Shown: positions 28,619 to 60,517, counted from the first letter of the stretch. The stretch: DNA of 64,000 bases from Nitrospirota bacterium (GCA_016201865.1 JACQCA010000012.1:4447-68446), one strand, 5' to 3'. Numbers and translations: made by a program. Notes: generated from the sequence alone by a model not told the origin.

Positions 28619-28630
28619 TCGGCTTTCTTT

Positions 28631-29662
28631 TCATTTCATTAACTGAGCCACTTGCAGCACGGCAATCTCTCCTCGACCCTCGTCATTCACACGCGTAAAT
28701 GCAAGGTCGCGACCGTCCGGGCTCCATGAGAGATAAAGGAAGCTCAAACCGTCGAAGACCTGTTTATCCACATTATATTTAAGCTCATGCGCTCCCAAGG
28801 CGCCCTTTGCAATGCGCCGCTCATTCTTTCCATCACGGTCCATCAGCCAGATATCCCGTCGGCCGTTCCGTTCCGAGACAAAGGCGATATGGCTTCCGTC
28901 CGGGCTCCAGGCCGGGAGAAAGTCCCGGCGGGTTTCCGTTTTCTGGGTCAATTGTTTAATCGTTCGCTCCGCCGTATCAATGATCCAGATATCGCTCTTG
29001 CCGCGCATCGAGGAAACGGCCGCCACGGATTTCCCATCCGGACTCCAAGCCGATACCCAATCGCCGCAGCGGATATTCGGCATCCCCTGGACGTTTCCGC
29101 CGTCCGCATCCATAACCCAAACGAGGACGTCCATGGATCGTGAAGAAACAAAGGCGATGCGTTTTCCATCCGGACTCCAGACGGGGGCGATATCCAGTCC
29201 ATTGAATTGTGTCAGCTGGCGGTTGTCGGTCCCGTCTAATTTCATGCTCCAGATATCCCAATTTCCGCTGCGATCCGACGCGTAAGCCAGCCGGGCGCCG
29301 TCCGGACTCCAAGAAGCAAAACGCTCATTGCTCGGATTATTCGTGATCTGCTTGAGCCCTGTCCCATCCCGGTTTATCGTCCAGATATCCCAATTTCCGG
29401 CCAGATCGCTTTCAAAAGCCAATGCCTTGCCGTCCGGGCTCCAGACCGGATGAATCGCGTTGGCCGGCAATGCACGGATCGGCATCACGGTCGCATTGCT
29501 CCACGCACAGCCCGCAATCAGCAAAAGAGGGATGAGGTATAAGGAGTAAGTGATCAGCGCATGGCTGATATTCGACCCGGACTTGATCTTTAGATGTCTT
29601 AACCCCTTCATTTTTGTTTCCCTCCTCATCCCGCGGCTTTTGCGTCGCTTCACGGCTGCCAT
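28631..29662 (-). CDS. WD40-like/PD40 beta-propeller protein, secreted (343 aa)
   Basis: Signal-anchor ITYSLYLIPLLLIAGCAWS (lipobox-like). Blades WSPDGKALAFESDLAGNWDIWTINRDGTGLKQIT, WSPDGARLAYASDRSGNWDIWSMKLDGTDNRQLT. Confidence 0.75.
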   Translation of the reverse strand: MAAVKRRKSRGMRRETKMKGLRHLKIKSGSNISHALITYSLYLIPLLLIAGCAWSNATVMPIRALPANAIHPVWSPDGKALAFESDLAGNWDIWTINRDGTGLKQITNNPSNERFASWSPDGARLAYASDRSGNWDIWSMKLDGTDNRQLTQFNGLDIAPVWSPDGKRIAFVSSRSMDVLVWVMDADGGNVQGMPNIRCGDWVSAWSPDGKSVAAVSSMRGKSDIWIIDTAERTIKQLTQKTETRRDFLPAWSPDGSHIAFVSERNGRRDIWLMDRDGKNERRIAKGALGAHELKYNVDKQVFDGLSFLYLSWSPDGRDLAFTRVNDEGRGEIAVLQVAQLMK

Positions 29663-30717
29663 CGGGGCGCACTGACCTCGCTACGGTTGAACGTCAACCG
29701 TTGCGGGTGATCCCCATTCGCATCCATGACGTAAACTTCCTCCGCACCGTCCCGGTTGGAGACAAAGGCGATCCGCTTCCCGTCCGGAGACCAGACCGGC
29801 TGGATATCCGCCGCCGGGTGTCGGGAAAGGTTCTTCACGTCGGAACCGTCCCGATTCATCGCATAGATCTCGCTGTTTCCGTCTCGCGTCGTTGTGAAGA
29901 GGATCTGCCGACCGTCCGGAGACCAGACCTGCATCCCCATTTGCTCATCTGATTTTGTCCGTGTCACGTTGCGCGGCCGGGAGCCGTCGGCATTCATCAC
30001 GTAGATCTCCCAGTTTCCATCCCGGTTCATGTCCCGATCGGTTCCCCAAGCAATCAGCATGCCGTCCGGAGACCAGGAATGGAAGCCCCGGCCGTCCTCG
30101 GCGGGATTCTGGGTGAGATTGATCGGATGGCCTCCATCGGCATCCATGGTATAGATCTCATAGTTGTCGTCCCGTCGGGAGACAAAGGCGATCTTCGATC
30201 CGTCCGGAGACCAGTGGGGGCTGTAATCCCGCGCTTCATTTCGGGTCAGTCGGCTCGGATGGCTGCCGTCGGCCGCCATCGAATAGATCTCTTGATTCCC
30301 GTCCCGATCCGAGACAAAGGCCAAGCGTCCCCCATCGGGAGACCACATCGGGTTATAGTCCTGTGCGCCGTTCCGCGTCAGGTTCGTCGGGTGCGAACCA
30401 TCGGCATTCATGATATAGATCTCTTTGTTTCCATCACGCTCCGAAACGAAGACGATCTTCTTTCCATCCGGGGACCAAAACGGGGAGCGGTTTTCGGCCT
30501 GGGTGTCGGTCAGACGCACGGCGTCTGTACCGTCGGCATTCATCATGTAGATTTCCCATTGACCGCTTTGCTTGGATTCGTAAACGATCTTTTTCTCTCC
30601 GGCCGCAACCGGGTTCGACAGAAACAGCACAACGGCGCCGATGATTAGCACCCCAAGACCCAAAGCGGATGCCCGACCGGCACGGCCTACCATTAAAATG
30701 TCCTTCATCGTTTTCAC
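29650..30717 (-). CDS. TolB-like PD40 beta-propeller protein, secreted (355 aa)
   Basis: Signal LGVLIIGAVVLFLSNPVAA. Blades SGQWEIYMMNADGTDAVRLT, DGNKEIYIMNADGSHPTNLT, DGNQEIYSMAADGSHPSRLT, DDNYEIYTMDADGGHPINLT, DGNSEIYAMNRDGSDVKNLS. Confidence 0.8.
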   Translation of the reverse strand: MKTMKDILMVGRAGRASALGLGVLIIGAVVLFLSNPVAAGEKKIVYESKQSGQWEIYMMNADGTDAVRLTDTQAENRSPFWSPDGKKIVFVSERDGNKEIYIMNADGSHPTNLTRNGAQDYNPMWSPDGGRLAFVSDRDGNQEIYSMAADGSHPSRLTRNEARDYSPHWSPDGSKIAFVSRRDDNYEIYTMDADGGHPINLTQNPAEDGRGFHSWSPDGMLIAWGTDRDMNRDGNWEIYVMNADGSRPRNVTRTKSDEQMGMQVWSPDGRQILFTTTRDGNSEIYAMNRDGSDVKNLSRHPAADIQPVWSPDGKRIAFVSNRDGAEEVYVMDANGDHPQRLTFNRSEVSAPRWQP

Positions 30718-30746
30718 TCCTTTATATATGCCTCAGGATATATGCC

Positions 30747-32966
30747 TCAGGGTTGCCAACGGGGGTAGTCTTCCCTCGTCCGCGTAAAGGTCAATTGGAC
30801 TTGATGCCTGCCGTCTGTATCCATGACATAGATCTCGTCAAAACCGGTCCGATTGGATACAAACGTCACCTTCTCCCCATCCGGGGACCAGAGCGGGACA
30901 TCATCCATCGCCGGGTTTCTCGAAAGATTCAAGGAACCGGTTCCATCCCCATTGACGACATACACCTCTTCGTTGTTGTCCCGGTTCGAAATAAAGGCGA
31001 TCTGTTGACCGTCCGGGGACCACACAAACATCCCGATCCCTTCCTCGGCCGGATGATGAGTCACATTGATTGGTTTAGAACCGTCCGCATTCATCACATA
31101 AATCTCCCAGTTTCCATCCCGGTTTGTAACCCAGGCAATCTTGGACCCGTCCGGCGACCAGGAATGACTTCCGCGGCCGTCTTCGGCGGAGTTTTTCGTC
31201 AGGTCTGTTTGCTCCGCTCCGTCCGGGTTCATGAGGTAGATCTCATTATTGCCGTCGCGATTGGAAACGAAGGCCACTCTTTTACCATCCGGAGACCAGT
31301 TGGGATTCCAGTTATCACCGGCCGCGGTCAAGCGGGATTGGCGCCGTCCTTCCGTGTCCATACGGTAGATCTCACGATGACTGTCCCGCTTGGAAACGAA
31401 TGTGATCCATTGACCGTCTGGCGACATGGAGGGACTGAAATCCTGTCCCTCGCTGCGGGTGAGGTTGCGCTGATCCGACCCGTCCGCATTCATCAGATAG
31501 ACTTCTTTATTCCCATCGCGGTCCGAAACAAATAGAATCGTACGCCCATCAGGAGACCAAAAGGGGGCCCGATTCTCAGCACGGGTATACGTCAGGCGGA
31601 CCTGGCCGGTCCCGTCTGCATTCATGAGATAGATTTCCCAGTTCCCGGATCGCCGCGATTCGAAGACGATCTTATGGCCCGGATCAGGCCGTAGAGAACC
31701 GCTGTGCTGAGCATCCGAGAATGTTCCGGCCAAGGCTTTATGGGCTCCGGTCTTCGCCGTCTCTCCTCGATCGAGAACGGTAAAAGCAAACGGAGCAAGA
31801 AACAGAACCGCAAAGAGGGCCGACACAAACGGGATATGTTTGATCCGACCTTTCTCTTTTTCTCTGCGCCATCGATACAGCATGCGCCGCAACCCTCTTG
31901 GGAAAATTCCCTTCACCGCCCCGAGCATGACGGTCGAAACGACTTTATAATGATCGGCGTCAATCACCGAAACGCTCGATGAGCCCTGGTTCACCACATA
32001 AATCGTCCTTCCATCCGGAGAAACGGTGATGTCCCATGGATCCTTTCCCACCGTAATCTTCTTGACGACCTTCTCCTGCACCGTATCGAGAACCGAGATC
32101 TCATTGGCGTCGCGGTGCGCGATGTAAAGATAGCGGCCGTCCGGCGATAGGGCCAGTCCGCCGGGATAGCTCCCGACCTTTACCATTTTCCGCATTTGGT
32201 TCGTTCGAGTATCCAAAATCGCAATTTCACCGCTGTCCTCAATCGCCGCATAGGCCGTCTTTCCATCCGGCGCCATCACAATATCCCTCGGCCCCCGAAG
32301 GACCTCTTCGCCATCCGGCAGGATGACGGTCCGAGCCGCATCGGAACTCGGATCCTTCAAGTCCAATCGGGCTTTAACGGCGCCGGTGGCCGTATCCACG
32401 ACGCGAATCGAATAGAAATCGGTTACGTAAACGGATTTTCCATCCGGCGTCATCGCCACATTCTGCGGCCCCACGCCGAGCGGAACGCGTTTCTTGACGG
32501 TACGGCTGGCCAGATCCACGATGGACAGGTTATTGCCGGATTCGGTCGCCACGTAGATCGTCCTCCCGTCCGGCGAGACGGCCATCCCGCCCGGATCCAT
32601 ATAACCGCCCTTTTCATCCTTTAATGAAATCTTGGCCCGGATGCTGTTGGAACGGGTGTCCACCACCGCGATCGCATCCGCCTCGCCCAACGCCACATAG
32701 AAATCCCGTCCATCTTGAGTAATGAAGCCGCCGCAGGGGGGAGAGTCGATCGACACCTTGCGGACCTGCGCGGGATCATTCCGGTCAATGATGTAGAACT
32801 GCCGGAGGCCTTTCAACGTCACGAAGAGTTGGGTCGGCCCATAAATGATCCGGCTGGCCGTATGCTTGGCCCAGACCGCGTCGGAACTTTGGAGCACAAG
32901 GCCCGCAGCAAAAATCATCCAGAGAAAGATCGTCTTCCGAGCCCTTATCTTCCCCATGACACCCAT
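30747..32966 (-). CDS. in-frame fusion ORF: N-terminal YVTN propeller (~350 aa) joined without a stop to a complete TolB-like PD40 propeller module carrying its own signal peptide
   Basis: The N-terminal half has YVTN-type blades (YVATESGNNLSIVD, YVTDFYSIRVVD, YIAHRDANEISVLD, YVVNQGSSSVSVID). At residue ~362 an internal Met (ATG ~31883, preceded by AGAGGG) opens MLYRWRREKEKGRIKHIPFVSALFAVLFLAPFAFTVL, a full signal peptide. PD40 blades follow (SGNWEIYLMNADGTGQVRLTY, DGNKEVYLMNADGSDQRNLT, DGNNEIYLMNPDGAEQTDLT...). Each half matches the size of the stand-alone paralogs. Confidence 0.6.
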   Translation of the reverse strand: MGVMGKIRARKTIFLWMIFAAGLVLQSSDAVWAKHTASRIIYGPTQLFVTLKGLRQFYIIDRNDPAQVRKVSIDSPPCGGFITQDGRDFYVALGEADAIAVVDTRSNSIRAKISLKDEKGGYMDPGGMAVSPDGRTIYVATESGNNLSIVDLASRTVKKRVPLGVGPQNVAMTPDGKSVYVTDFYSIRVVDTATGAVKARLDLKDPSSDAARTVILPDGEEVLRGPRDIVMAPDGKTAYAAIEDSGEIAILDTRTNQMRKMVKVGSYPGGLALSPDGRYLYIAHRDANEISVLDTVQEKVVKKITVGKDPWDITVSPDGRTIYVVNQGSSSVSVIDADHYKVVSTVMLGAVKGIFPRGLRRMLYRWRREKEKGRIKHIPFVSALFAVLFLAPFAFTVLDRGETAKTGAHKALAGTFSDAQHSGSLRPDPGHKIVFESRRSGNWEIYLMNADGTGQVRLTYTRAENRAPFWSPDGRTILFVSDRDGNKEVYLMNADGSDQRNLTRSEGQDFSPSMSPDGQWITFVSKRDSHREIYRMDTEGRRQSRLTAAGDNWNPNWSPDGKRVAFVSNRDGNNEIYLMNPDGAEQTDLTKNSAEDGRGSHSWSPDGSKIAWVTNRDGNWEIYVMNADGSKPINVTHHPAEEGIGMFVWSPDGQQIAFISNRDNNEEVYVVNGDGTGSLNLSRNPAMDDVPLWSPDGEKVTFVSNRTGFDEIYVMDTDGRHQVQLTFTRTREDYPRWQP

Positions 32967-34006
32967 TTCTCCTCCGCATCGGTATGCGTCAATCGTCGCG
33001 GGCGAGACCCGTCCCGGTCCATGACATAGACCTCCGAATTCCCATCCCGTGTTGAAGTAAACGCGATCTGTCTTCCGTCCGGAGACCAGACCGGCCAGAA
33101 ATGATCGCCAGGAGCGGTCGTCAGCGGCGTGAGTTCCGAGCCGTCCGGTCTTATCCGGTAAATTTCCTGGCGGCCGCTTCGATCGGACACAAAAAGAAGA
33201 TCGCGGCCGTCCGGAGACCAGACCGGTCCGTCATCCGCGGCCGGATGGTTCGTCGCGTTCCGCGCCCCGGATCCGTCGGACGCCATGACATAGATCTCGC
33301 GATTCGCGTCCCGTTCCGAAACGAACGCGATCTGTCTTCCGTCCGGAGACCAGACGTGGCTGTCCATGCCGTCGCTCGCCGAGTTGTACGTCAGCCGGAT
33401 CTGATTGGAACCGTCACGGTTCATGACATACACCTCAGGGTTTCCATCGCGGGTCGAGACAAACAGAATTTTCGTTCCATCCGGAGACCAAACCGGGATG
33501 GCATCCATGGCCGGGTCATGAGTCAATCGCCGCTCATGAAGCAAGGATGTTCGTTCATCGCCGCCGACGTCCACCGCGTAGATCTCTTCATTCCCATCGC
33601 GCAAGGATGTAAAGACGATCCGCTCCCCCTCCGGCGACCAGTCCGGATCCTCCTCATCGGCCTCGGTGTAGGTCAGCCGCGTCTGCCCTGTGCCGTCGGC
33701 CCGCATCAGATAAAGCTCCTTGTTGCCGTCACGGGTCGAGATGAAGGCGATGCGCGTCCCATCCGGAGACCCGGCCGGCCAGATGTCATCCCCGCGGCTT
33801 CGGGTCAGTCGTTCTTCTTTTCCGGTCGTCGCATCCATGAGATAAATTTCCCAGTCTCCGTCCCGGTTAGAACCGTAAACAAGTCGCGCATGGGGAGCAG
33901 GAGATTCGGAATGGATCCGAACCCCCATGCAGCCTGCCATCATCAATCCCAAAACCCCCAACCATTTCAGCACCGCTCTCGACTCTCGACTCACACTATT
34001 TGTCAA
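32945..34006 (-). CDS. TolB-like PD40 beta-propeller lipoprotein (353 aa)
   Basis: Lipobox LMMAGCMG. Blades DGDWEIYLMDATTGKEERLT, DGNKELYLMRADGTGQTRLTY, DGNEEIYAVDVGGD, DGNPEVYVMNRDGSNQIRLTY, DGNSEVYVMDRDGSRPRRLTH. Confidence 0.8.
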   Translation of the reverse strand: MTNSVSRESRAVLKWLGVLGLMMAGCMGVRIHSESPAPHARLVYGSNRDGDWEIYLMDATTGKEERLTRSRGDDIWPAGSPDGTRIAFISTRDGNKELYLMRADGTGQTRLTYTEADEEDPDWSPEGERIVFTSLRDGNEEIYAVDVGGDERTSLLHERRLTHDPAMDAIPVWSPDGTKILFVSTRDGNPEVYVMNRDGSNQIRLTYNSASDGMDSHVWSPDGRQIAFVSERDANREIYVMASDGSGARNATNHPAADDGPVWSPDGRDLLFVSDRSGRQEIYRIRPDGSELTPLTTAPGDHFWPVWSPDGRQIAFTSTRDGNSEVYVMDRDGSRPRRLTHTDAEEKWVSWGR

Positions 34007-34872
34007 TCCTTAGCGCATCGAAACCCGTAGGTATAATCCGAGTGCCAACCGTCCGCCTCACGGGGCCCGACGGTCGGAAGAACCGCTAATCGCGCGGCGG
34101 TTCTTGAAAAAGCGGCGTCGGTTAAATACGATCCGCCCCGGATGATCTTGAACGATCCGGACCCGCTCACGGCTCGCGCGGTGTTGCCCGGATAGGACCG
34201 ATAGACCGTCGCCGTCCATTCTCTTACGTTGCCGGCCATATCGTACACACCGTACGGGCTGAGATCCTCCGGATGACTCCCAACCGGCGCCTTCCAACCC
34301 TTCACTCCGTAATGCTCTTGTCCTTCCGGCGACTTCCAGCGCGCACTGGTCTCCAAGGTATTCGCGCGACCGGGTTCAAACCGATTGCCCCACGGCCAGA
34401 GACGCCCATCCGTCCCCCGCGCGGCCTTTTCCCATTCCGCCTCGGTCGGCAGGCGTTTCCCGGCCCACCGGCAGTATTCGACCGCATCAAACCAGTCCAC
34501 ATCCGATACGGGATAGGTTTCATATCCTTCCGGAAAGGAATCCTCGCGGCCCGCTTCCTTCCAATAACCCGGATACTTTTTTGAGCCGGTCGCCTTCAAA
34601 AATTGAAGATACTCCGCCTCCGTAATCTCATAGCGGTCGATATAAAACGACCGAACATACATCTTTTGCTGCGGGAGCTCATCCACCCCGATCTCAAATC
34701 CGATCTTCCCATCCCGGTCGGTGCTGCCGATCAGAAACGAACCGCCGGGGACATAGACCATAGGAGTCATAGGAGTCGCAGAGCGAGGGTTCGGAACGGC
34801 GGGGGTCATAAAGACACACCCTCCCAGAACCGGCCACAAAAGCAGCATCGTTAACCGGATTCTTTTTCTCAT
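34003..34872 (-). CDS. FGE-sulfatase (formylglycine-generating enzyme) fold protein, secreted, lacking the catalytic Cys pair (289 aa)
   Basis: Signal LTMLLLWPVLGGC. Diagnostic FGE-family motifs RLPTEAEWEKAARGTDGRLWPWGN and IRGGSY. The C-terminal region reads RGGSYLTDAAFSRTAARL, without the CxxxxC of catalytic FGEs; it ends GFRCAKD. Confidence 0.8.
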   Translation of the reverse strand: MRKRIRLTMLLLWPVLGGCVFMTPAVPNPRSATPMTPMVYVPGGSFLIGSTDRDGKIGFEIGVDELPQQKMYVRSFYIDRYEITEAEYLQFLKATGSKKYPGYWKEAGREDSFPEGYETYPVSDVDWFDAVEYCRWAGKRLPTEAEWEKAARGTDGRLWPWGNRFEPGRANTLETSARWKSPEGQEHYGVKGWKAPVGSHPEDLSPYGVYDMAGNVREWTATVYRSYPGNTARAVSGSGSFKIIRGGSYLTDAAFSRTAARLAVLPTVGPREADGWHSDYTYGFRCAKD

Positions 34873-35700
34873 CTAATTCGCATCCTTCGCGCACCGGAAA
34901 CCGAAATCCGGCTGGGCGAGATCGGCCAGCCGGTAATGCCGGTGGGCCGCACGCGCAAACGGATTCGCCGGCATTTCCCATGAACCGCCCCGCAGGATCC
35001 GAAATTTCTTGTCCGGCGCAATCGTCCGGGGTGATCCCGGATAGGATTTTAGAATTGACGCGGTCCATTCCATCGCATTCCCGGCCAGATCAAATACTCC
35101 ATAGGAACTGGCGCCTTCCGGAAGGCTTCCGACCGGCGTCGTCCAGTTACGTTTCGAGTCCTCGGTGTTCATCCGCTTTAAATCCAGTTCATTCCCCCAA
35201 GGCCAGATCCGGCCGTCCGTCCCGCGCGCCGCCTTTTCCCATTCCTCCTCGGTCGGCAAGCGTTTCCCCGCCCATCGGCAGTAGGCCTCGGCATCATAGA
35301 AGTTCACGTCGATCACCGGGTGATGATCCTCCGGCGCCGGATAACCGAATTCCTTGTAGTCCTTCCAGATCGCCGGAGATTCATGACCGGTTGCGGTCAC
35401 GAACGGCCGATACGATCCGACCGAGACCTCATAACGATCGATCCAGAACGCTTTGACGGAAACCGCATGCTTCGGCATGGAATCCACCCCCACTTCGAAT
35501 CCGATCTTGCCGTCGTTCGCGTCGCTCCCCATCATGAATTCACCGGCCGGAATAAGCGCCATGTCCGACGGCGGCGGGGATGCGGAAGCGGCATCAGCAT
35601 ACTGTTGAAGTATTAAACCGGCCGAAAGCATGATCCATACTCCCACCCCCGCACCCCTTAATACTTCAACCCTTGGACTCATTTTAGATCCGCCGCGCAC
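34873..35700 (-). CDS. FGE-sulfatase fold protein, secreted, non-catalytic paralog (about 270 aa)
   Basis: RLPTEEEWEKAARGTDGRIWPWGN, LRGGSW...FARAAHRHYR, no Cys pair, ends FGFRCAKD. The likely start is the Met at ~35682 (MSPRVEVLRGAGVGVWIMLSAGLILQQYADAA), overlapping the upstream gene by 4 nt. Confidence 0.8.
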   Translation of the reverse strand: MRGGSKMSPRVEVLRGAGVGVWIMLSAGLILQQYADAASASPPPSDMALIPAGEFMMGSDANDGKIGFEVGVDSMPKHAVSVKAFWIDRYEVSVGSYRPFVTATGHESPAIWKDYKEFGYPAPEDHHPVIDVNFYDAEAYCRWAGKRLPTEEEWEKAARGTDGRIWPWGNELDLKRMNTEDSKRNWTTPVGSLPEGASSYGVFDLAGNAMEWTASILKSYPGSPRTIAPDKKFRILRGGSWEMPANPFARAAHRHYRLADLAQPDFGFRCAKDAN

Positions 35701-36503
35701 CGAAAACCGATCGACCGATGCCTTTTCCCGGGCTCGCGGGCCATGCTGCGACTGGCCGATCGGGCATATGGTTCGCCCGGCAAGGTGTAGGCGCCGCCTT
35801 TGACGACCTTGTTTTTGCCGAACGCGTTCCGAACGAGTTTACTCCCCGGATAGGCCTGATACCAGTCGGCCGTCCATTCGGCCACATTACCGGCCATGTC
35901 GTATACCCCGTACGGACTGACACCTTTCGGAAAGCTGCCCACGGGAAGCGTGCCCGCCGCTTTATACTCTTGAACATTGGCCTTTTGCGGATCGAACATA
36001 TTTCCCCATGGCCAGATCCGACCGTCCGTGCCGCGCGCAGCCTTTTCCCACTCCGCCTCGGTGGGCAATCGCATCCCGGCCCATTTGCAGTAAGCATCCG
36101 CATCGTCCCATGACACATAAATCACCGGATGGTTTTCAAACTCCTTCGGAACGCCGCCCTCGCGGGCCCATGGATAAATCTCCGGGAACCGCGGATCGCC
36201 GGGCGGCTTTCTTCCGGTCGCTTCGATAAATTTTCGATACTGCTTTGCTGCGACCTCATACCGGTCGATCGAGTACGCTTTCAGATCCACCGCGTGCTGA
36301 GGCAGCTCGTCCACCCCCACCGTAAAACCCACGCGACCGTCTTTGGGCTCGCTTCCCATCAAAAACGTCCCGGCCGGAATCGGCACCATGTCGGCTGTAG
36401 GTTGCGAGCGGGCCTGCCCCCCGAAAAGCAATGAGCACGTTACCGCTTGAGTCATGAGCAGACTCCACTTGAATAATGTTCCTCCACGACTCACAACTCT
36501 CAA
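35679..36503 (-). CDS. FGE-sulfatase fold protein, secreted, non-catalytic paralog (about 274 aa)
   Basis: RLPTEAEWEKAARGTDGRIWPWGN, VKGGAY...YARSASRSMAREPGKRHRSIGFRCAAD, no Cys pair. The track start is TTG; an ATG (MTQAVTCSLLFGG) preceded by GGAG is an alternative start. Confidence 0.8.
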   Translation of the reverse strand: MRVVSRGGTLFKWSLLMTQAVTCSLLFGGQARSQPTADMVPIPAGTFLMGSEPKDGRVGFTVGVDELPQHAVDLKAYSIDRYEVAAKQYRKFIEATGRKPPGDPRFPEIYPWAREGGVPKEFENHPVIYVSWDDADAYCKWAGMRLPTEAEWEKAARGTDGRIWPWGNMFDPQKANVQEYKAAGTLPVGSFPKGVSPYGVYDMAGNVAEWTADWYQAYPGSKLVRNAFGKNKVVKGGAYTLPGEPYARSASRSMAREPGKRHRSIGFRCAADLK

Positions 36504-36528: not shown

Positions 36529-39500
36529 TTACCCGCTCGTTCCCGGGTTTCTTCCTCCCGCGCACCACCGGGCGTTCGGCGTGCCGGTGTTGCTCGACTG
36601 ATAAGCGCAGGAATCCATCACTTCGTTATGACAACGGAGGTAGCACCGGAAACTGGTGCCGTCATAGAACCACATCGGCTTCTGGGCCGTGGTCCCTTCC
36701 GCCTGAGGACCGAAATTAATCAGATGCGTTCCGACCACCCCGTCCGTCATGCCGTCCACGCTGTCGGGCGGCAGCATCCCGCCGCGACCGTCGCCGAAGA
36801 TGGTATTGAGCGCTTCGACATTCGAATGGACATTGTAGTGGCATTCATGGCACATCGCGCCGGTCCACCGGAGGTGATACATATGCAGATTGCCGTTCCA
36901 CCAGGAATCCACACCGCCTGAACTTGCCGCCGTATTCAGACCGAAGAAATGGGTCCAACTCCGATCCTTATCCAGGGATGGGGTACCCGATTGACTATCA
37001 ATCGGGTTTCCGGCCGAAGGGTCGAACCCGCGGCGATCGTGGCATTGGAAACAGAGAAGAAATTTCCTAAAGTGGGTCGGATTGATTCCTCCCCCGCCTC
37101 CGGCGATGGCATGGGAGGGTGTTCCTCCGGGAGCGCTATACCCATCGCCCTCCTTCCCCGCGCAACTGATCTGAGGATTGTTCTGTTCAAAACACCGGAT
37201 AGGACTTAGAATATCGGTATCGTAATTGGCACGCAGGATGCGCCGGTTAATCGAACCGTGCGGACCGATCGGCTTGCCCGGCCGATCCGTCACGTAATTA
37301 AAACCGATGACGGCATTTAAGTCCGGCCAGACATCCGTAGGTCTCAGATTGGATTCGGTCAGCGGCCCACGGATGCCAGAATTATCTTGCGCCGCCGTTG
37401 CAGCATCGAGATTGGCCTGGTAAATATTGGAGTAAACGTCATACGCATTGTTGTTGTGACAATCCGTGCATTGAATCGTCAGATTGCTCAACGCGGCCGA
37501 GGCCGCGGCCGGATTGCCGGGAGCAGGCACGACGTTGCCCGGCCCGTTGCCGCAGTTTAAGCTAAAGGCAACGGCCAGTTGGTTGCATAACTGAAAGGCG
37601 CCGTTGCGACCGGGTTTTACCACGGGATGGTAGGCCGGGTTTTTTATTTGCTGGGTATGTGAAAAGACCACTTGGCCATAGCGGGTCAGATCGATGCTCA
37701 ACATCGCAGGCGTTTCGACATCGGCCGTTTGGGGATTCAGTTCCCGCCATTTGTTGCTGAAGCCGCGGAACGAGAAGGCGGTGCCCGTGGCCCCATTGGT
37801 CGGATCGGTCCTGGGTGAAAACAGGGTCGTCTTGTAAGAGGCAAAACCATCCGGCACCGCAAGGCTGGTCACATCGTTGGGGTAGCGCAGGTTGGGCGTG
37901 CCTGTATCCGGACCGAAGACTTTTTCATAGCTGTTGCCGTGGCAACGGAAACAGACTTCGTAGACGTAGGGATCTCGATTGGCTGAGGTGCCGTCGACCG
38001 TGGTGTCCCTTCCACAGATCACATAGCCGGGCAGACACCGGCTTACCACCACGGGCCGCGTCCCCGTGATGTCGATGCCGACCCCCTTCGCCCCCTTCAA
38101 TCGTGCTCCTTGTCCGTTCGCGCCGGGACTTCCGATTCCGCCCGGAGGATTCGGGGCGCCATTGTAAGACAGCGCCGCCAAGTTGGGACTGTTCACTTGG
38201 TGGGGGTTGTGGCAGTCCACGCATTCCACATGGGTCGTATCAAGCGTCGTGATGCCGGGCGTCGTCTCGTTGTTCACCGGAACAAGCGCGGCTCCCTCGC
38301 TCCTGAGCTGGACTCCTTCTTGGGAGCGGGATATGATGACCGGCTCATGCCCGCCGGCCAACTGCAGACACATCGCGCTTCCCCCTCCCGATCCTCCCAA
38401 GCAGATCGCGCTGTCTTTGGCAAATTCGCTGTAGATATCGGGAGCGACGCGCGCCGAACCGGAACTGCCGCAGGCGCCGGACGTGTTGGTTCCGTCGCAG
38501 AACCGGTGATTCACATTTTGGACCGTGGGATCGCCGGCCGGAAGGAAGACGTTGGACACCGTTTGGTTGTTGGGCGAATGACAGAGGAAACAGGTGTTTT
38601 CCACGGCATCCCCGGCTCCAAAGGCCGTGACGCCTTCCCGGTGAAGCCTCTTCGCCCCCTGAGCGGTGTGGGGATCATGACAGTTTCGGCAGGCATACGC
38701 CGCAACTGTGTGGCCTCCGTCAAAATCATACGGGCTGCTCGCGCCGGGATAGGCCGCATGAACGGCCTGGCTGATATCATGCGTGCTGTTATCCCAGCCG
38801 GGTTTGCTGTGGCAATAGAGGCAGATGATTTGGCCGGCGGGAGCCACACGAGCAGGCTCGCCCACTAAATATCCCGTCTCGGTCGCGTCCTGGAACCGCG
38901 GCGCCCGAAGAAACTTGGGGTAGGTCACCGCATGGGGATTGTGGCAGGAGGTGCATTGGACTTTGTTGAAGTCGAGGGGGTCCGCGGGGTTGTTTCCCGG
39001 ATACCGTTTCACACCGGTCTGGTATCCCCCGGCCGGGGCCAAGGGGGTAATGGAGCTCAGAGCGGCGGGCGGTCCGGGATCCACCAGCTCCGCATCCACA
39101 TTGACCGCGAGGTTCGAATCAAACGAAAACGAGATCGGATGGTCGTTCTGAAGATTGGTGCCGAGCACGCGCGTGTCGCCGGTCAGCAGTCCCGCCCCAA
39201 CGGCCCCGGCTTGAGTAGACATGGCCCCGACTCCTAAGAAATCCGTCGTGGGCGTCTCTGTGCCGTATCCCCCCGATCCCGGTTTATTGATCACGCTGCC
39301 GATGGCGATCACCCCGTCGTGACACGAAAGACACAACCGGGAATAGCCGGTCGGCTTGCTCGGATCGTTCAGCGCTCCTTCGAATGAAAAGCTCCAGGCC
39401 TGATCATATAAGACATACGCCGTGGTATCCCGATAGGAAAGGTTCCGGTTCCAGATCGGCGCCTTAATCGCAGGAAGAGTGGAAGACGCTCCGACACTGC

Positions 39501-39843
39501 TCGCCCCGTGAGGGGTGTGACAGAAAACACAGACCTCGGACTGGCTCGCCGAGTGGGTCGTCCCGAACCCTGAAGAGGAAAGGTTATGTCGGCTGAGCCT
39601 GATATCCTCCTCGACAGCCACCGTCCCCGGCGGCAACGGCGGACATTCGGAACCGCCCGGACATGTGGCCCAGGCCTGCGAGTCGAGTATTGGGAGTTGA
39701 ACGTTGAAAGTTGAGAGCAAGGCGAAAATAAACCAAAAGAATACCACCTTGCCAGCGGCTGGGGACAGATTTGAAATCTGTCCCCTCCCGATTTTCAAAT
39801 CCGTCCCCTCCCGGTTCATCACTCTTCGATCCTTCCCTTTCAT
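36529..39843 (-). CDS. multiheme c-type cytochrome, 1104 aa, 11 CXXCH plus 1 CXXXCH heme-binding motifs, signal-anchored/secreted
   Basis: Motifs CVFCH, CLSCH, CTSCH, CLYCH, CRNCH, CFLCH, CVDCH, CFRCH, CTDCH, CFQCH, CHECH and CYLRCH. The N-terminal module (CVFCHTPHGAS...APIWNRNL...CLSCHDG...NDHPISF) matches the first module of the four smaller cytochromes at 57.9-63.6 kb. Strong RBS GGAGGAAGG before the ATG; hydrophobic segment VVFFWFIFALLSTF. Confidence 0.85.
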   Translation of the reverse strand: MKGKDRRVMNREGTDLKIGRGQISNLSPAAGKVVFFWFIFALLSTFNVQLPILDSQAWATCPGGSECPPLPPGTVAVEEDIRLSRHNLSSSGFGTTHSASQSEVCVFCHTPHGASSVGASSTLPAIKAPIWNRNLSYRDTTAYVLYDQAWSFSFEGALNDPSKPTGYSRLCLSCHDGVIAIGSVINKPGSGGYGTETPTTDFLGVGAMSTQAGAVGAGLLTGDTRVLGTNLQNDHPISFSFDSNLAVNVDAELVDPGPPAALSSITPLAPAGGYQTGVKRYPGNNPADPLDFNKVQCTSCHNPHAVTYPKFLRAPRFQDATETGYLVGEPARVAPAGQIICLYCHSKPGWDNSTHDISQAVHAAYPGASSPYDFDGGHTVAAYACRNCHDPHTAQGAKRLHREGVTAFGAGDAVENTCFLCHSPNNQTVSNVFLPAGDPTVQNVNHRFCDGTNTSGACGSSGSARVAPDIYSEFAKDSAICLGGSGGGSAMCLQLAGGHEPVIISRSQEGVQLRSEGAALVPVNNETTPGITTLDTTHVECVDCHNPHQVNSPNLAALSYNGAPNPPGGIGSPGANGQGARLKGAKGVGIDITGTRPVVVSRCLPGYVICGRDTTVDGTSANRDPYVYEVCFRCHGNSYEKVFGPDTGTPNLRYPNDVTSLAVPDGFASYKTTLFSPRTDPTNGATGTAFSFRGFSNKWRELNPQTADVETPAMLSIDLTRYGQVVFSHTQQIKNPAYHPVVKPGRNGAFQLCNQLAVAFSLNCGNGPGNVVPAPGNPAAASAALSNLTIQCTDCHNNNAYDVYSNIYQANLDAATAAQDNSGIRGPLTESNLRPTDVWPDLNAVIGFNYVTDRPGKPIGPHGSINRRILRANYDTDILSPIRCFEQNNPQISCAGKEGDGYSAPGGTPSHAIAGGGGGINPTHFRKFLLCFQCHDRRGFDPSAGNPIDSQSGTPSLDKDRSWTHFFGLNTAASSGGVDSWWNGNLHMYHLRWTGAMCHECHYNVHSNVEALNTIFGDGRGGMLPPDSVDGMTDGVVGTHLINFGPQAEGTTAQKPMWFYDGTSFRCYLRCHNEVMDSCAYQSSNTGTPNARWCAGGRNPGTSG

Positions 39844-39923: not shown

Positions 39924-42900
39924 TCACGGACCCGGAATAATCAGCTCATATGTATTCGTATCGCCACTGCCGTTTCCGGCCTGGATGAAATAGCCTTTCC
40001 ACGGCTCTAAGATCGCCTGCGGGGCGCTGTACACATCCGGCAAGGCCGGTGCCAGATAAATATAGTTGGCGCCCTTCAATTCATAAATGGCGCCCGCGTT
40101 TTGGATCCAGTTATTGGGATAGGGATTAGTGTACGCAGCAGTGTAGGTAACACAGCTTGCGTCATTGTTAAATATTCGAACCTTACTGTTCGTTAAATCC
40201 TTCCGTGTGGTGAACGGATTGCCAATCATGTTCCAACCCTTACTCAAGTGAATGGCGAAACTGTTGGCCACACCACAATATGTCCCATAGTTCACATCGC
40301 CCGCCTGCAGCGCACGCGATCCCACCGGCACATCAATCACGGGATTGTACGGTCCGCCGATTAAGAAGTAGCCTTCGCCGGGCTGAATCAGTAACGTTGT
40401 CGTCGTAAGGGGACCGGTGGCCGTGGCATGGGCCCAAATCTCGCTTGAGGTCAGCGCCCGGTTCCAGATCGCGACTTCGTCAACGGTGCCGGCCAAGAAT
40501 TGACTTTGTGTTCCGACCGCATCCCAAGCCGCCCCGATCGTGAGATTTCTGATTGTCGTCAGATTCGCCCCGATCAGGCTTGGGTTGGTCTGATTTATTT
40601 CTAACGCACCGTCAACATACACGAGAAGTTGACCTGTTGTGCTGTTCCATGTCATGGCAATGTGATGCCACTGCCCATCATTGATTACTTTTGTGGAAAG
40701 AGCAGGGACACCGTAATTTGCTCCTGTATTGGTTGTCACACCCGAATAAATGGAAGCGCTGAGTCCATTGTCAACGACAACATTATTTAATGTTGAAGCG
40801 CCGGAGATTTGCCAGCCCGCGGTGGTGCCTGCGTTTCCTGTGCCCCGTTTTTGGACAAGCCGCCATTGAGTCCCCTGGGTCGTTTTGATCCAGCCTTCAA
40901 CCGTAAAGCTCTGGGCGTTAAAATTCAAGACATTGCCCATATCCACATATTGCGTCGCCCCGTTCAAGGAAAGGGCACTGGTGAATTTACCCGCACCGTA
41001 TGAAGGACCGCCAACTAATGTGCCGTTATTTGCATACCCGCTCGAATCCGGCGTCGGACTTCCACCATCCAAATGCCACACGCCCACGGCATCCGATGAC
41101 AGGCCGTAGCCGGTATAAGTGGCATTATAGTTTATAAAGGAGCCGTTATCGGCGTTGAAGCCGGTTGAATTCCACCGGAAGAGCTGCGGCGCCCCGCTAA
41201 TGTCATCCTCGAAGATGACCATCGGATTCGGGCTGGCCGGCTTGAGCGGCACTGAGATAAGGTTGAAGTTCGTCCGAAGCGCCGTGCGGCCGGCCTTGCT
41301 GCCGTCGGTCGTGTTGTCGCCGCAGGAGGTCGTCGTCCCGGCGCAGTATGCGACGTTGGACATCAGCGACTGTCCCGTCGGAAATCCTCGCTCATCCGCG
41401 GCCTTGAGCGCAAAGTAGTAAATCGTATTTGTTGCCAGACCGGTCACCGTAAACGTTTCGGGAGACCCGGCTAATTGGGGCGCGGGTTCACCTGTGGCCT
41501 GCACCACGCAATCTACCGGCTTGGTGGAATCGGCGCAGGCAAGGTTGCTCCAGTCCACCTGATTGGCGCCGGGAGTTCCATCCACAATCGGCAGCATGGA
41601 GTACCGCACGTCGTAACTGGCGGCCGAGCCCACACCGGGCGCATCGAAATCATCTGGCGGCGCGGTCCAAGTCAGCGTAATGGAATCTTTGCGCTGTTCT
41701 CCCTGCTTGATGGTAAGATCCGTAACCGCTGCAGGAGCCTTCGTATCCGAACTTCCGGAGGTGGGGTTCGGAGCCTGAGCCTGGTTCGAGTAGGCCGAAT
41801 TGATATCCTGCGAGCCGTCTGAAGCCGCCCACACAGGACGAACAAAAGCTCTCACTTGATAGCAATATTTCTTCCCGGGTGTAAGCCCCGTGTCGGGATA
41901 ATAGACAAGGCCGCCGGTCGACGCCGACTGAACGGTGTCGCTCAAGACTTCTTTGATCTGGGTGAAGCCCGTGGTCGTACCCGGACAGACCCCGGTCCCG
42001 GTTATATCCAACCGCTCCACTTTAAACCCGGTTTCCGGATCCGGCGGACTGTTGGCGGAGCCGGAGTTGTCCACCCAGGTCAGATTAAGCTGCGTCTGAC
42101 TTAACGTCGCATCGGGCGGATTCGTGACCGTCAGGTTCGGCGCCCTGATCTGGGAAGCGGTGGGCGCAATGGCCGCAACGGCCTTGACCGAGTCGGGATT
42201 CGCAGCCATCGCAGCGTTTACTACGAGACCGCTGGTGGCTGCGGCATGGGCCTGAATTTCAGTCAGGGTCAGCGCCCGGTTCCAGATCACAACTTCGTCA
42301 ATGGAGCCGAGGAATGGGGACATGAAACCCGTGACCCCGGACACCCCGATCTTCAGGCTCCCCGTGGTGGCCACGCGAGGTTCTCCAACAATGGCTTGCG
42401 TCGTGCCATTCCGTGCCTCATTCACATAGAAGGTCACATTCCCGCCGCTCACTACCGCGGCGACATACTGCCAGATGCCTGGCGTCAATGAAGCGCCGTT
42501 GGAGATCGTATCCTGTGATGTTGCGCTCTTTCGATGGCTGAAATTGAGCAGGCCCGCCGAGGTAATACTTAATCGATATTCCGCATCGAAATTACCGCTC
42601 GGTTGCGCCTTGGATAAAATCCACCGCGTCGCGGCAAAATTAGTCGGATTCACCCATGCTTCAAGCGTGAGATCGCCGGTCAGTTGCAGGGGGGCCGCGT
42701 TCGGCACCTCCACATAATCATCCACGCCGTCGAAGGAGAGCGCGTTGACGAATCCTGATTTACCGGTGGTCCATGTAGGCATGGTAGAGACTCTGGTAAA
42801 GCTCAATTCATCCACCCAGCCATTGCCTGCAGGAGTGCCATCCGCAAAGCATCGGACATTAACGCTTGTCGTCCCCACCGGAATGAGTACAGTCTCAGTT

Positions 42901-48233: not shown

Positions 48234-48664
48234 TCACCACCGTAAAGTCCGTGTTCCCGGACGTTAAATACTCCGTCCAGCCGCTGGCTATTGCTTGGTC
48301 ATCCAACGCACGGTACTGCCAATGATAGCTCGTCCCGTACGACAACGACCCCGCCCGCACCCGCGCGATCTGCCCGGTGTTCACGGTGCCGCTCGTCACC
48401 ACCTTCGCCGACGCCGTGCAGGTCCCCGTCGCCGGACAGCCGCGCCGTGCAGGTCCCCGTCGCCGGACAGCCGAAGGTCGTCGCCGTCGGCTGCACCTCC
48501 ACCTGCAACTGGATTGTCTCGGCCACATGGACATCCGACAGCGTCGCATTAAAGCAGATGCTCAACTCCCCGATCGTCCCCGTGATCTCGGCCACCACGT
48601 TCCCGGCCGTCGTCGGACAACTTCCCAGGTCCTCCCGCTGCTCGACGAACGCCAGCGTCGGCGG
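47987..48664. repeat. perfect local tandem duplication inside the giant gene: 141-bp unit X (about 47987-48127 and 48303-48443) and 101-bp unit Y (about 48128-48228 and 48564-48664), plus a ~31-bp direct duplication (about 48413-48443 / 48444-48474)
   Basis: The identical peptide GCPATGTCTASAKVVTSGTVNTGQIARVRAGSLSYGTSYHWQYRALD is encoded twice (N-terminus of the 2769-aa ORF and inside the 244-aa ORF 47815..48549). TLAFVEQREDLGSCPTTAGNVVAEITGTIGEL is also encoded twice (244-aa ORF and the C-terminus of the 1519-aa ORF). Copy 1 joins X directly to Y, lacking the ~89-bp segment Z (about 48475-48563) present in copy 2. Copy 2 carries the extra ~31-bp duplicate. Both changes shift the frame; the 1519-aa ORF ends in the out-of-frame reading RLSGDGDLHGVGEGGDERHREHRADRAGAGGVVVVRDELSLAVPCVG. 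Unit boundaries +/-2 nt. Confidence 0.7.
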
Positions 48665-60437: not shown

Positions 60438-60517
60438 TTTCTTCCCTCCCTATGTCGGTTCACCGTTGCCGCACGGACAACGGCTCGCCGCGCCAAAGAC
60501 AAACACACGATCTCGGT

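What the first reader, a model, noticed from the sequence alone, without database searches (positions are those of the whole stretch)
34003..36503. Three tandem secreted FGE-sulfatase-fold paralogs that all lack the catalytic cysteine pair
Seen in the sequence: each ~270-290 aa protein has a signal peptide, the hallmark RLPTE(A/E)EWEKAARGTDGR(L/I)WPWGN and (I/L/V)(R/K)GG(S/A)(Y/W) motifs, and a C-terminal GFRCA(K/A)D. None has the C-x4-C pair (as in LCHxSYCxRYR) that catalytic formylglycine-generating enzymes use. No sulfatase gene is nearby. Established knowledge: Cys-less FGE-fold proteins (e.g. NirV next to copper nitrite reductase, PvdO in pyoverdine maturation) act as accessory or maturation factors, not sulfatase activators. 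Inference: these may mature or chaperone the neighbouring multiheme cytochrome or cupredoxin rather than sulfatases.
Basis: partly seen in the sequence, partly recalled or inferred. Interest (0 to 1): 0.6.

Follow-up and report, generated by a model that had tools for sequence, protein, structure and literature searches.

The report
Cysteine-less FGE-fold trio beside undecaheme cytochrome
Three exported proteins with the fold of the sulfatase-activating enzyme, but without its copper-binding cysteines, sit directly behind an 11-heme cytochrome in a groundwater Nitrospirota genome; the pairing is conserved across that lineage, so they are most likely dedicated helper subunits of an outer-membrane electron conduit.

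Summary
Three back-to-back minus-strand genes (34003-36503) encode full-length FGE-sulfatase-fold proteins (Pfam E about 1e-55). Each mature protein has only two cysteines, and these align with a structural disulfide of human FGE. The catalytic C-x4-C pair is replaced by L/M and P/A. No sulfatase, cupredoxin or nirK is found in the 64 kb window.

The trio is not a recent duplication. A, B and C are three orthologous lineages under purifying selection (dN/dS about 0.1) and are translationally coupled. C is always a lipoprotein.

The upstream neighbour is an undecaheme cytochrome. It lies in a cluster with tetraheme cytochromes, a PPIase, a predicted 30-strand outer-membrane barrel and NHL propellers, which resembles the published Uet/Occ clusters.

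Sampling from the cytochrome side gives a clear split. All 7 evaluable close homologues (34-67% identity) are followed by 1-3 Cys-less FGE genes. Only 2 of 47 distant undecaheme loci are.

The link to the cytochrome is therefore well supported. A maturation or chaperone role is untested. I favour a non-catalytic docking or assembly role, as in PorK.

Related FGE pairs elsewhere fuse a diheme cytochrome c to an FGE domain that keeps the Cys pair. Verdict: new variant of a known kind, moderately interesting.

The parts
35679..36503 (-). FGE-A: exported Cys-less FGE-fold protein (274 aa), first of the trio
   Evidence: PF03781 E = 1.4e-58. AF2 pLDDT 84; Foldseek top hits are CalU17, ToxD and FGEs at TM 0.70-0.75. 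Orthologue clade A. dN/dS 0.12-0.15.
34873..35700 (-). FGE-B: exported Cys-less FGE-fold protein. The likely start is the ATG at 35682, which overlaps the FGE-A stop (ATGA).
   Evidence: PF03781 E = 1.9e-56. Junction sequence. Orthologue clade B. dN/dS 0.09-0.12.
34003..34872 (-). FGE-C: Cys-less FGE-fold lipoprotein (289 aa). Its ATG abuts the FGE-B stop codon (TAG|ATG).
   Evidence: PF03781 E = 5.2e-55. The lipobox VLGGC is conserved in all C orthologues. Junction. dN/dS about 0.10.
36529..39843 (-). Undecaheme c-type cytochrome (1104 aa, 11 CXXCH), directly upstream of the trio; UetJ/OccP-like
   Evidence: 11 CXXCH. Paired_CXXCH_1 and Cytochrome_C7 hits. 100% identical to NCBI HY204_01520 from a Nitrospirae MAG. 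Homologues have 11 CXXCH.
39924..52858 (-). Giant fn3/LamG repeat surface protein, read as three ORFs (39924-48233, 47815-48549, 48299-52858). It is inserted between the NHL gene and the cytochrome.
   Evidence: Laminin_G_3, fn3 and Pur_ac_phosph_N hits. Homology to the L002 giant protein runs through frames 1, 2 and 3 near 48100-48400.
52866..53510 (-). 214-aa exported protein of unknown family
   Evidence: No Pfam or NCBIfam hit.
53607..54716 (-). NHL-repeat beta-propeller (UetH/I-like)
   Evidence: PF01436 E = 3.5e-37. An NHL gene lies directly upstream of the undecaheme gene in 50 of 56 distant and 4 of 4 close metagenome loci.
54716..56683 (-). Predicted large outer-membrane beta-barrel (655 aa; UetC/MtrB-like position)
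   Evidence: AF2 pLDDT 83.6 with 30 strands. Best Foldseek PDB hit is MtrB 6r2q_B at E = 1.6e-9, with low TM of 0.33. Invariant C-terminal R..F.
56793..57767 (-). SurA-like peptidyl-prolyl isomerase (UetB-like)
   Evidence: SurA_N_3 and Rotamase hits.
57915..61618 (-). Three tetraheme paired-CXXCH cytochromes (57915-58952, 59280-60437, 60518-61618; UetA-like)
   Evidence: 4 CXXCH each. Paired_CXXCH_1 hits.
61637..63650 (-). Second NHL propeller (61637-62761) and a pentaheme cytochrome (62781-63650)
   Evidence: 5 CXXCH.
25611..34006 (-). Downstream propeller set in conserved order (PD40 353 aa, YncE+PD40 739 aa, PD40 355 aa, PD40 343 aa, Ycf48/BNR-like 615 aa, PD40 387 aa). It follows the trio in the closer relatives only.
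   Evidence: Pfam hits. The same order occurs in L001, L002, L007, L008, L009 and L089.

Best explanation
The three genes encode exported, non-catalytic FGE-fold proteins: two soluble and one lipid-anchored. They are dedicated accessory components of a Nitrospirota version of the Uet/Occ-type outer-membrane electron conduit, which consists of a large beta-barrel, NHL propellers, a PPIase, tetraheme cytochromes and an extracellular-type undecaheme cytochrome.

Shown:
- They have the FGE fold but no Cu(I)-binding cysteine pair.
- They are three old orthologous lineages under purifying selection.
- They are translationally coupled to each other and co-directional with the undecaheme gene.
- In this lineage the undecaheme gene is always followed by 1-3 such genes.

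Inferred: the former substrate groove of the fold has been repurposed for protein binding, as in PorK/GldK of the type IX secretion system and in the Tsi3 immunity proteins. A, B and C would then form a hetero-oligomeric docking or assembly hub, anchored to a membrane through FGE-C. This hub would position, stabilise or help insert the undecaheme cytochrome at its barrel.
For: - Fold and loss of the Cu site.
- No Cx4C in any cytochrome-linked FGE: window, L001-L009, L087-L096, L102 and L136.
- Three orthologous subclades A, B and C, each in 8 or more contigs.
- dN/dS of 0.09-0.15, similar to the cytochrome.
- ATGA and TAG|ATG gene junctions.
- Conserved lipobox in C.
- Synteny from the FGE side.
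- Unbiased sampling from the cytochrome side: 3 of 3 look-ups and 4 of 4 evaluable close metagenome loci have FGE genes directly downstream, against 2 of 47 distant loci.
- The conduit nature of the neighbourhood: 11 CXXCH; a 30-strand barrel whose best PDB match is MtrB; NHL, PPIase and tetrahemes; and the published uet and occ cluster composition.
- Precedent for Cys-less FGE folds acting as docking hubs or binders: PMC12421860 and bioRxiv 10.1101/2021.05.21.445229.
Against: - There is no direct evidence of any physical interaction. A multimer prediction could not be run.
- The copy number varies from 1 to 3 between lineages, which sits awkwardly with a fixed A:B:C complex.
- The uet and occ clusters described in Proteobacteria, and 45 of 47 distant undecaheme loci, lack FGE genes. 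The conduit as such therefore does not need them.
- The PorK-type insertion domains that build its ring are absent here.
- Strong conservation of polar residues inherited from catalytic FGEs (E130, R345, R349, human numbering) would also fit a ligand-binding or enzymatic site.
- Sister clades with an intact Cys pair fused to a diheme cytochrome hint at redox chemistry in the wider family.
Confidence: 0.45

Rival explanations
1. They are enzymes after all: Cys-independent periplasmic oxidoreductases or modifying enzymes, PvdO-like. They would act on the undecaheme cytochrome (a true maturation step) or on a small periplasmic or extracellular substrate, exchanging electrons with the cytochrome chain.
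For: - PvdO, a Cys-less periplasmic FGE-fold protein, is required for an oxidation step.
- The closest solved structures by fold, CalU17 and ToxD, are biosynthetic-pathway proteins.
- Related clades fuse a diheme cytochrome c to an FGE domain that keeps the Cx4C pair, so the wider family is wired to c-type cytochromes.
- Groove residues E130, R345 and R349 are invariant.
Against: - No candidate metal ligands replace the lost cysteines. The positions hold L/M/T and P/A and differ between paralogues.
- PvdO-, EgtB-, SenA- and OvoA-specific models score far below their cut-offs, and there is no DinB domain.
- PvdO's own catalytic activity has never been shown in vitro.
- Most undecaheme relatives mature without an adjacent FGE gene.
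Confidence: 0.25
2. They are lectin-like binding modules of the cell-surface matrix. As C-type-lectin-like folds they would bind glycans, exopolymer or mineral surfaces, working with the giant fn3/LamG protein and the many PD40, NHL and BNR propellers. On this view they do not work specifically with the cytochrome.
For: - The whole 64 kb window is one co-directional array of exported propellers and a protein of about 4300 aa with fn3/LamG repeats.
- Giant fn3/TIG proteins accompany the FGE genes in L002, L004, L087, L088 and L091.
Against: - The invariant neighbour is the undecaheme gene, not the giant protein or the PD40 set. L090 and L092 have the cytochrome plus FGE without a giant protein within 10 kb, and the downstream genes differ between L001, L004, L090 and L092.
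- The lipobox on C points to a membrane-anchored protein that is probably periplasmic.
Confidence: 0.15
3. They are ordinary formylglycine-generating enzymes that serve sulfatases encoded elsewhere in the genome.
For: Strong PF03781 matches. Database names such as 'formylglycine-generating enzyme required for sulfatase activity' are attached to homologues.
Against: - Both Cu-binding cysteines are absent in all three and in all orthologues. This pair is essential for FGE chemistry.
- There is no sulfatase domain in the 64 kb window.
- The related MAG JACQBZ carries a separate FGE with a Cx4C pair at another locus (L010).
Confidence: 0.02
4. They are variable ligand-binding proteins of a diversity-generating retroelement (like Treponema TvpA, an FGE-type fold), or T6SS immunity proteins of the Tsi3 type.
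For: TvpA (2y3c) is among the PDB sequence hits. A bAvd-like gene sits between two FGE genes in L090. Tsi3 proteins are Cys-less FGE folds.
Against: - There is no reverse transcriptase and no near-identical template/variable repeat pair in the window or in L090. The only repeats are the 66-76% identical paralogue cores.
- No T6SS genes are present.
- Orthologues are conserved at their C-terminal ends instead of being hypervariable.
Confidence: 0.01

Closest known systems
PorK / GldK / GldJ (type IX secretion and gliding; FGE-like fold used as a docking hub)
   Same: They are exported and outer-membrane-associated, and anchored as lipoproteins (here FGE-C). They have the FGE fold without the two catalytic cysteines. 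Several FGE-fold paralogues work together, as GldJ and GldK do. The substrate groove is reused for protein-protein contacts (PMC12421860).
   Different: The window proteins are minimal FGE domains of 270-290 aa without PorK's InsH and InsV insertions. They score 92-98 bits against a 350-bit cut-off for TIGR03525. No T9SS genes are nearby, the phylum differs, and the partner would be a cytochrome conduit, not PorN.
Canonical aerobic FGE (human SUMF1; Thermomonospora curvata and Streptomyces coelicolor FGE)
   Same: Same fold (TM 0.67-0.71). The structural disulfide C218-C365, the GNxxEWT segment, E130, R345 and R349 are kept. Sequence identity is 30-35%.
   Different: C336 and C341 (the Cu(I) ligands) and the C235-C346 disulfide are absent. 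A clade-specific insertion DG[KR][IV]GFxVGVD is present. No sulfatase lies nearby.
PvdO (pyoverdine maturation) and NirV (next to nirK)
   Same: Both are periplasmic, single-domain, Cys-less FGE-fold proteins encoded beside the redox system they serve.
   Different: NF051459 scores 63-77 bits against a 500-bit cut-off. There are no pyoverdine genes and no nirK or multicopper-oxidase domain in the window. The biochemical roles of PvdO and NirV are themselves unresolved.
Uet cluster of Ca. Tenderia electrophaga and Gallionella; Occ cluster of Ca. Dechloromonas occultata (the neighbourhood, not the FGE genes)
   Same: An undecaheme cytochrome of about 900-1100 aa lies with NHL propellers, a PPIase, a very large outer-membrane barrel and tetraheme cytochromes, in one co-directional cluster.
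   Different: The published clusters list no FGE-fold gene: 'sulfatase' and 'formylglycine' occur zero times in the three papers that describe these clusters. They continue with ccsAB, nrfG and batABD, and contain triheme c7 proteins and a cupredoxin (UetD-G) that were not found here. Direct sequence comparison with UetJ or OccP was not possible.
Diheme-cytochrome-c-FGE fusions paired with Cys-less lipoprotein FGEs (uncharacterised; found here in Nitrospirota, Gammaproteobacteria and Deltaproteobacteria MAGs)
   Same: They are the nearest sequence relatives outside the cytochrome-linked clade (41-52% identity). They are tandem FGE paralogues, one of them a Cys-less lipoprotein, and are linked to c-type hemes. 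NHL, tetraheme and PPIase genes lie upstream in L028 and L066.
   Different: In those pairs one member keeps the C-x4-C pair and carries its own two hemes. In the window trio no member does.

Membership tests
PF03781 FGE-sulfatase domain superfamily (FGE / C-type-lectin-like fold) | Full-length match to the family HMM above the gathering score, and the FGE fold | tested here: met
   187-199 bits against a 23.3-bit cut-off, covering profile positions 2/3-254/255 of 255. The AF2 model matches FGE, CalU17 and ToxD structures at TM 0.67-0.75.
Catalytic aerobic formylglycine-generating enzyme (SUMF1 type) | Two active-site cysteines (human C336 and C341, C-x4-C) that bind Cu(I) | tested here: not met
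   L/M/L at 336 and P/P/A at 341. There are only two Cys per mature protein, and both align with the structural C218-C365 pair. None of the cytochrome-linked orthologues has a Cx4C.
Catalytic aerobic formylglycine-generating enzyme (SUMF1 type) | A sulfatase substrate (PF00884 with C/S-x-P-x-R) in the genome, often nearby | tested here: inconclusive
   None in the 64 kb window, and no [CS]xPxR in the neighbouring cytochromes or barrel. The rest of the genome could not be searched.
EgtB / OvoA / SenA sulfoxide and selenoxide synthases | N-terminal DinB_2 domain with the iron site, and a score above the equivalog cut-off | tested here: not met
   46-111 bits against cut-offs of 360-420. Only the C-terminal FGE part of those models is matched. 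The proteins are 270-290 aa with a signal peptide.
PvdO (dihydropyoverdine dehydrogenase) | Score above the NF051459 cut-off and a pyoverdine gene context | tested here: not met
   63-77 bits against 500. No NRPS or pvd genes in the window.
PorK/GldK and GldJ (T9SS) | Score above the TIGR03525/TIGR03524 cut-off, insertion domains, and T9SS partners (PorL/M/N) | tested here: not met
   92-98 bits against 350, and 27-58 bits against 458. The length of 270-290 aa leaves no room for the roughly 150-aa InsH. No T9SS genes are present. Only the lipoprotein feature is shared, by FGE-C.
NirV | Encoded next to copper nitrite reductase nirK | tested here: not met
   No multicopper-oxidase or cupredoxin domain in any window ORF.
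Uet/Occ-type undecaheme electron-transfer cluster (neighbourhood) | Undecaheme cytochrome with an NHL propeller, a PPIase, a large OM beta-barrel and a tetraheme cytochrome in one cluster | tested here: met
   11 CXXCH. NHL, PPIase and tetraheme genes. A 30-strand barrel whose best match is MtrB. In relatives the NHL gene directly precedes the undecaheme gene; in the window a giant gene is inserted between them.
Uet/Occ-type undecaheme electron-transfer cluster (neighbourhood) | Sequence homology to Ca. Tenderia UetJ/UetC or Ca. Dechloromonas OccP; presence of the triheme c7 proteins UetD/E/G and the cupredoxin UetF | not testable with these tools
   Reference sequences could not be fetched. 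Metagenome relatives at 27-33% identity with 11 hemes and an upstream NHL gene exist, but they carry no taxonomy. No triheme c7-only protein or cupredoxin was found in the window.
DGR variable proteins of the FGE/CLec type (TvpA-like) | Reverse transcriptase plus a template/variable repeat pair at the 3' end of the gene | tested here: not met
   No RT domain, and no near-identical repeat; the only repeats are the 66-74% identical paralogue cores.

The most novel reading that the evidence does not exclude
The FGE fold has been recruited twice into extracytoplasmic electron transfer.

(i) In a Nitrospirota branch of the Uet/Occ family, one to three Cys-less FGE-fold proteins would form an outer-membrane-anchored docking hub that is an integral structural part of a porin-undecaheme cytochrome conduit. 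This would be a PorK-like solution in a system where no such component has been described.

(ii) Their nearest relatives are periplasmic copper-type FGE domains that carry their own diheme cytochrome c as a built-in electron donor, each paired with a Cys-less lipoprotein partner. This would point to a heme-driven periplasmic Cu oxidase, and would bear on what donates electrons to FGE-type copper sites outside the cytosol.
Probability: 0.25. Interest if true: 0.7.

Novelty: new variant of a known kind. Interest (0 to 1): 0.5.

Why it matters
Porin-cytochrome conduits are how many lithotrophs and metal reducers exchange electrons with minerals. How their large extracellular cytochromes are positioned and assembled is poorly understood, especially in uncultured Nitrospirota from groundwater.

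A lineage-wide, tightly coupled set of FGE-fold proteins behind the undecaheme gene gives a concrete and testable candidate for such an accessory component. It would add a third documented non-catalytic use of the FGE fold, after PorK/GldK and Tsi3.

It also matters for annotation. Homologues are named 'formylglycine-generating enzyme required for sulfatase activity', 'iron(II)-dependent oxidoreductase' or 'SUMF1/EgtB/PvdO family nonheme iron enzyme', and none of these names fits.

The diheme-cytochrome-FGE fusions found on the way may be of independent biochemical interest.

Tried and rejected
- An exact-sequence look-up of FGE-A found nothing, probably because the deposited start codon differs. 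The source was identified through the cytochrome instead: 100% identity to HY204_01520 from a Nitrospirae MAG.
It was redone with database homologues.
- Sulfatase-activating FGE was rejected: no Cys pair and no sulfatase.
- Membership of EgtB, OvoA, SenA, PvdO, GldK and GldJ was rejected on the NCBIfam cut-offs.
- A NirV-like context was rejected: no nirK or cupredoxin.
- A DGR variable protein was rejected: no RT and no TR/VR pair.
- A Tsi3-type immunity protein was rejected: no T6SS context.
- I looked for a [CS]xPxR recognition motif in the cytochromes and the barrel as a possible binding target and found none.
- Recent tandem duplication was rejected. A, B and C are separate orthologous clades, 47-48% identical to each other but 78-80% identical to their orthologues.
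- Literature searches for FGE-fold genes in uet, occ or Nitrospirota cytochrome clusters, and for diheme-FGE fusions, found nothing relevant in the held library.

Full report
**Observation.** Each matches Pfam PF03781 (FGE-sulfatase) over the whole profile, with E = 1e-55 to 1e-58. They are 47-48% identical to one another and share the quoted motifs. An AlphaFold2 model of FGE-A (pLDDT 84) superposes on CalU17, ToxD and bacterial and human FGEs at TM 0.67-0.75.

HMMER and MAFFT alignments to human FGE place L/M/L at C336 and P/P/A at C341. The second structural disulfide (C235-C346) is also gone. Each mature protein has exactly two cysteines, in AYC[KR]WAG and GFRCA, which align with the C218-C365 disulfide of human FGE. 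A displaced catalytic pair is therefore excluded. Residue numbering and the roles of these cysteines are from my knowledge of the human FGE structures; the need for two Cu-binding cysteines is also stated in the papers read.

E130, R345, R349 and the D/N293-G296-E300 segment are retained. The fold-stabilising framework, and what I recall as the second Ca site, are thus kept; only the copper site is lost. No sulfatase domain occurs in any ORF of 150 aa or more in the window.

**Anatomy of the trio.**
- The FGE-A stop overlaps an ATG of FGE-B (ATGA; the likely true start is at 35682).
- The FGE-B stop is immediately followed by the FGE-C ATG (TAG|ATG).
- The FGE-C stop overlaps the start of the next gene.
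- All three have N-terminal export signals. FGE-C and every one of its orthologues carry a lipobox (L-[GA]-G-C or a close variant), whereas A and B in the close relatives have Sec-type signals.

In a neighbour-joining tree of 142 FGE domains from the fetched loci, the cytochrome-linked proteins form one clade. It splits into three orthologous subclades A, B and C, each represented in eight or more independent contigs. Orthologues are 78-80% identical where paralogues are 47-48% identical. Against two relatives, dN/dS is 0.09-0.15 for each paralogue, about the same as for the cytochrome (dS exceeds 1, so the ratios are rough). This is an old, maintained triplication, not a recent tandem duplication or decaying copies. 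The clade has its own invariant insertion, DG[KR][IV]GFxVGVD.

**Neighbourhood.** The whole 64 kb window is one minus-strand array.

Directly upstream of the trio lies a 1104-aa c-type cytochrome with 11 CXXCH motifs. It is 100% identical to hypothetical protein HY204_01520 of a Nitrospirae MAG. The closest genome for the trio is another groundwater Nitrospirae MAG, at 90% identity.

Further upstream, in order:
- a giant fn3/LamG repeat protein that is read as three ORFs;
- a 214-aa unknown protein;
- an NHL propeller;
- a 655-aa protein with no family assignment;
- a SurA-like PPIase;
- three tetraheme cytochromes;
- a second NHL propeller;
- a pentaheme cytochrome.

The 655-aa protein is predicted with pLDDT 83.6 as a 30-strand beta-barrel. 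Its best Foldseek match in the PDB is MtrB of the Mtr complex, although the TM-score is low (0.33) because barrel sizes differ. Its family ends in an invariant R..F.

This composition is that of the published uet cluster of Ca. Tenderia electrophaga and Gallionella: UetA tetraheme, UetB PPIase, UetC 28-strand barrel, UetH/I NHL and UetJ undecaheme. It also matches the occ cluster of Ca. Dechloromonas occultata, with OccP as a 922-aa undecaheme plus NHL proteins. I could not compare sequences directly with those references, so 'Uet/Occ-like' rests on architecture.

Downstream of the trio come PD40, YncE and Ycf48-like propellers, followed by about a dozen more PD40 paralogues.

**Is the link to the cytochrome real?**

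From the FGE side, contigs with relatives down to about 50% identity show the order PPIase, barrel, NHL, undecaheme, then two or three FGE genes. In L087 the order is undecaheme, giant fn3 protein, a 166-aa protein, then two FGE genes.

That sampling is biased towards synteny, so I also sampled from the cytochrome side:
- Three homologues at 38-44% identity, picked only for long contigs, are followed directly by 3, 2 and 1 FGE genes.
- In a metagenome scan with a cytochrome alignment, all 4 evaluable loci of the close clade (at least 390 bits to the window protein) have FGE genes directly downstream.
- Of the distant loci (107-260 bits, 27-33% identity, mostly 11 CXXCH, with an NHL gene directly upstream in 50 of 56), only 2 of 47 do.
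- None of these FGE genes has a Cx4C pair.

The FGE genes are therefore a lineage-specific but, within that lineage, invariable appendage of the undecaheme gene. By contrast, the genes further downstream and the giant protein vary between loci.

**The wider FGE clade.** Relatives at 41-52% identity occur in Nitrospirota, Gammaproteobacteria (for example Thiotrichaceae) and Deltaproteobacteria MAGs, typically as tandem pairs. The first member carries an N-terminal segment with two CXXCH motifs and an FGE domain that keeps a C-x4-C pair (GGSW[VIYFW][DN]CSFYxCG). The second is a lipoprotein without the pair (GGxGHY). This holds for 30 of the 32 Cx4C-containing proteins in the sample.

In L028 and L066 such a pair lies just behind an NHL gene, a tetraheme cytochrome and a PPIase. 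Some MAGs carry both kinds of locus: JBMOMC has L016 and L060 plus L090, and JACQBZ has L010 plus L007. Chloroflexota relatives are singletons. The family as a whole is thus tied to c-type cytochromes by fusion as well as by neighbourhood, and the window trio belongs to the branch in which no member retains the copper site.

**Mechanism.** What is shown: these are exported FGE folds without a Cu site; they form three maintained orthologous lineages; they are translationally coupled; and they are invariably adjacent to the undecaheme cytochrome in this lineage.

What I infer as most likely (about 0.45): they act as a non-catalytic docking or assembly module for the conduit, anchored through the lipoprotein FGE-C. 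The reasons are:
- The lost cysteines are replaced by variable hydrophobic residues, not by alternative ligands.
- The two experimentally characterised Cys-less exported FGE folds act by protein binding. PorK/GldK/GldJ are outer-membrane lipoprotein docking hubs that reuse the substrate groove, and Tsi3 binds its effector.
- Three distinct, co-translated paralogues suggest a hetero-oligomer.

The PvdO precedent, the conserved polar groove residues and the heme-fused relatives favour it. The absence of candidate metal ligands counts against it, as does the fact that 45 of 47 distant undecaheme loci manage without an adjacent FGE gene.

A lectin-like matrix-binding role together with the giant protein and the propellers is possible (about 0.15), but it fits the invariant adjacency less well. 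Canonical FGE, DGR variable protein and T6SS immunity roles are rejected.

**Comparison with what is known, and novelty.** The proteins are members of the PF03781 superfamily. They fail the defining tests for catalytic FGE, EgtB/OvoA/SenA, PvdO, PorK/GldK/GldJ and NirV.

Cys-less FGE folds are common and would not surprise a specialist in themselves. What appears unreported in the library I could search is their fixed association with a Uet/Occ-like undecaheme conduit in Nitrospirota, and the diheme-cytochrome-FGE fusions next door. 'Sulfatase' and 'formylglycine' occur zero times in the uet, occ, Gallionellaceae and Manganitrophaceae papers, and nothing relevant came up.

I rate this as a new variant of a known kind, with interest about 0.5.

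**Limits.**
- No interaction, localisation or expression data are available.
- Multimer modelling was unavailable.
- The metagenome loci carry no taxonomy.
- The rest of the genome could not be searched for sulfatases.
- The neighbour-joining tree has no support values.
- The Ca-site assignments are from memory.

Noticed in passing
L013:9016-10792, L016:8928-10780, L028:7222-10726, L066:9674-13153, L042:9698-11693, L036:1588-5852 and about 20 further loci: These are tandem pairs in Nitrospirota, Gammaproteobacteria and Deltaproteobacteria MAGs. The first gene fuses two N-terminal CXXCH heme motifs to an FGE domain that keeps the C-x4-C copper-type pair. The second is a Cys-less FGE-fold lipoprotein (GGxGHY). 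This holds for 30 of the 32 Cx4C proteins in the sample, and I found no description of it in the searched literature.
   Followed up: partly
window:47815-48549 with 39924-48233 and 48299-52858: The two giant ORFs (1519 and 2769 aa) and a bridging 244-aa ORF look like one fn3/LamG repeat gene of about 4300 aa. Homology to the L002 giant protein passes through frames 1, 2 and 3 around 48100-48400. This is either two frameshifts or assembly errors in a repetitive region, or a pseudogene. Intact relatives of 4094-4378 aa exist in L088 and L091.
   Followed up: partly
window:13080-34006: About 18 consecutive co-directional genes encode exported beta-propellers. Most are roughly 350-aa PD40/TolB-like paralogues, with some YncE-like and one Ycf48/BNR-like. 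More NHL, BNR, Kelch and sortilin-like propellers lie at 852-13072. The whole 64 kb has no credible plus-strand gene. The first six propellers keep their order in L001, L002, L007-L009 and L089.
   Followed up: partly
L093-L171 (metagenome loci): An NHL-repeat propeller gene lies directly upstream of the undecaheme cytochrome gene in 50 of 56 distant and 4 of 4 close loci. Nearly all complete cytochromes have exactly 11 CXXCH despite lengths of 660-1180 aa. NHL plus undecaheme looks like the invariant core of this conduit family.
   Followed up: partly
L090:15061-15393: A 110-aa gene with bAvd / 23S_rRNA_IVP hits (the accessory protein of diversity-generating retroelements) sits between the second and third FGE genes of a Nitrospirota MAG. 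FGE-type folds are known DGR targets, but no template/variable repeat was found in 12500-17000 and no reverse transcriptase was called nearby.
   Followed up: partly
window:54716-56683: The predicted barrel has 30 strands. That is larger than MtrB (26) and than the 28 strands predicted for UetC. Its family was found only in Nitrospirota-type contigs (32 database hits, none with a Pfam domain).
   Followed up: yes
L092:13019-13870: In one distant Nitrospirota MAG the single FGE gene behind the undecaheme cytochrome is of the GGxGHY 'partner' type that elsewhere accompanies the diheme-FGE fusions. The two FGE subfamilies can therefore occupy the same position.
   Followed up: no
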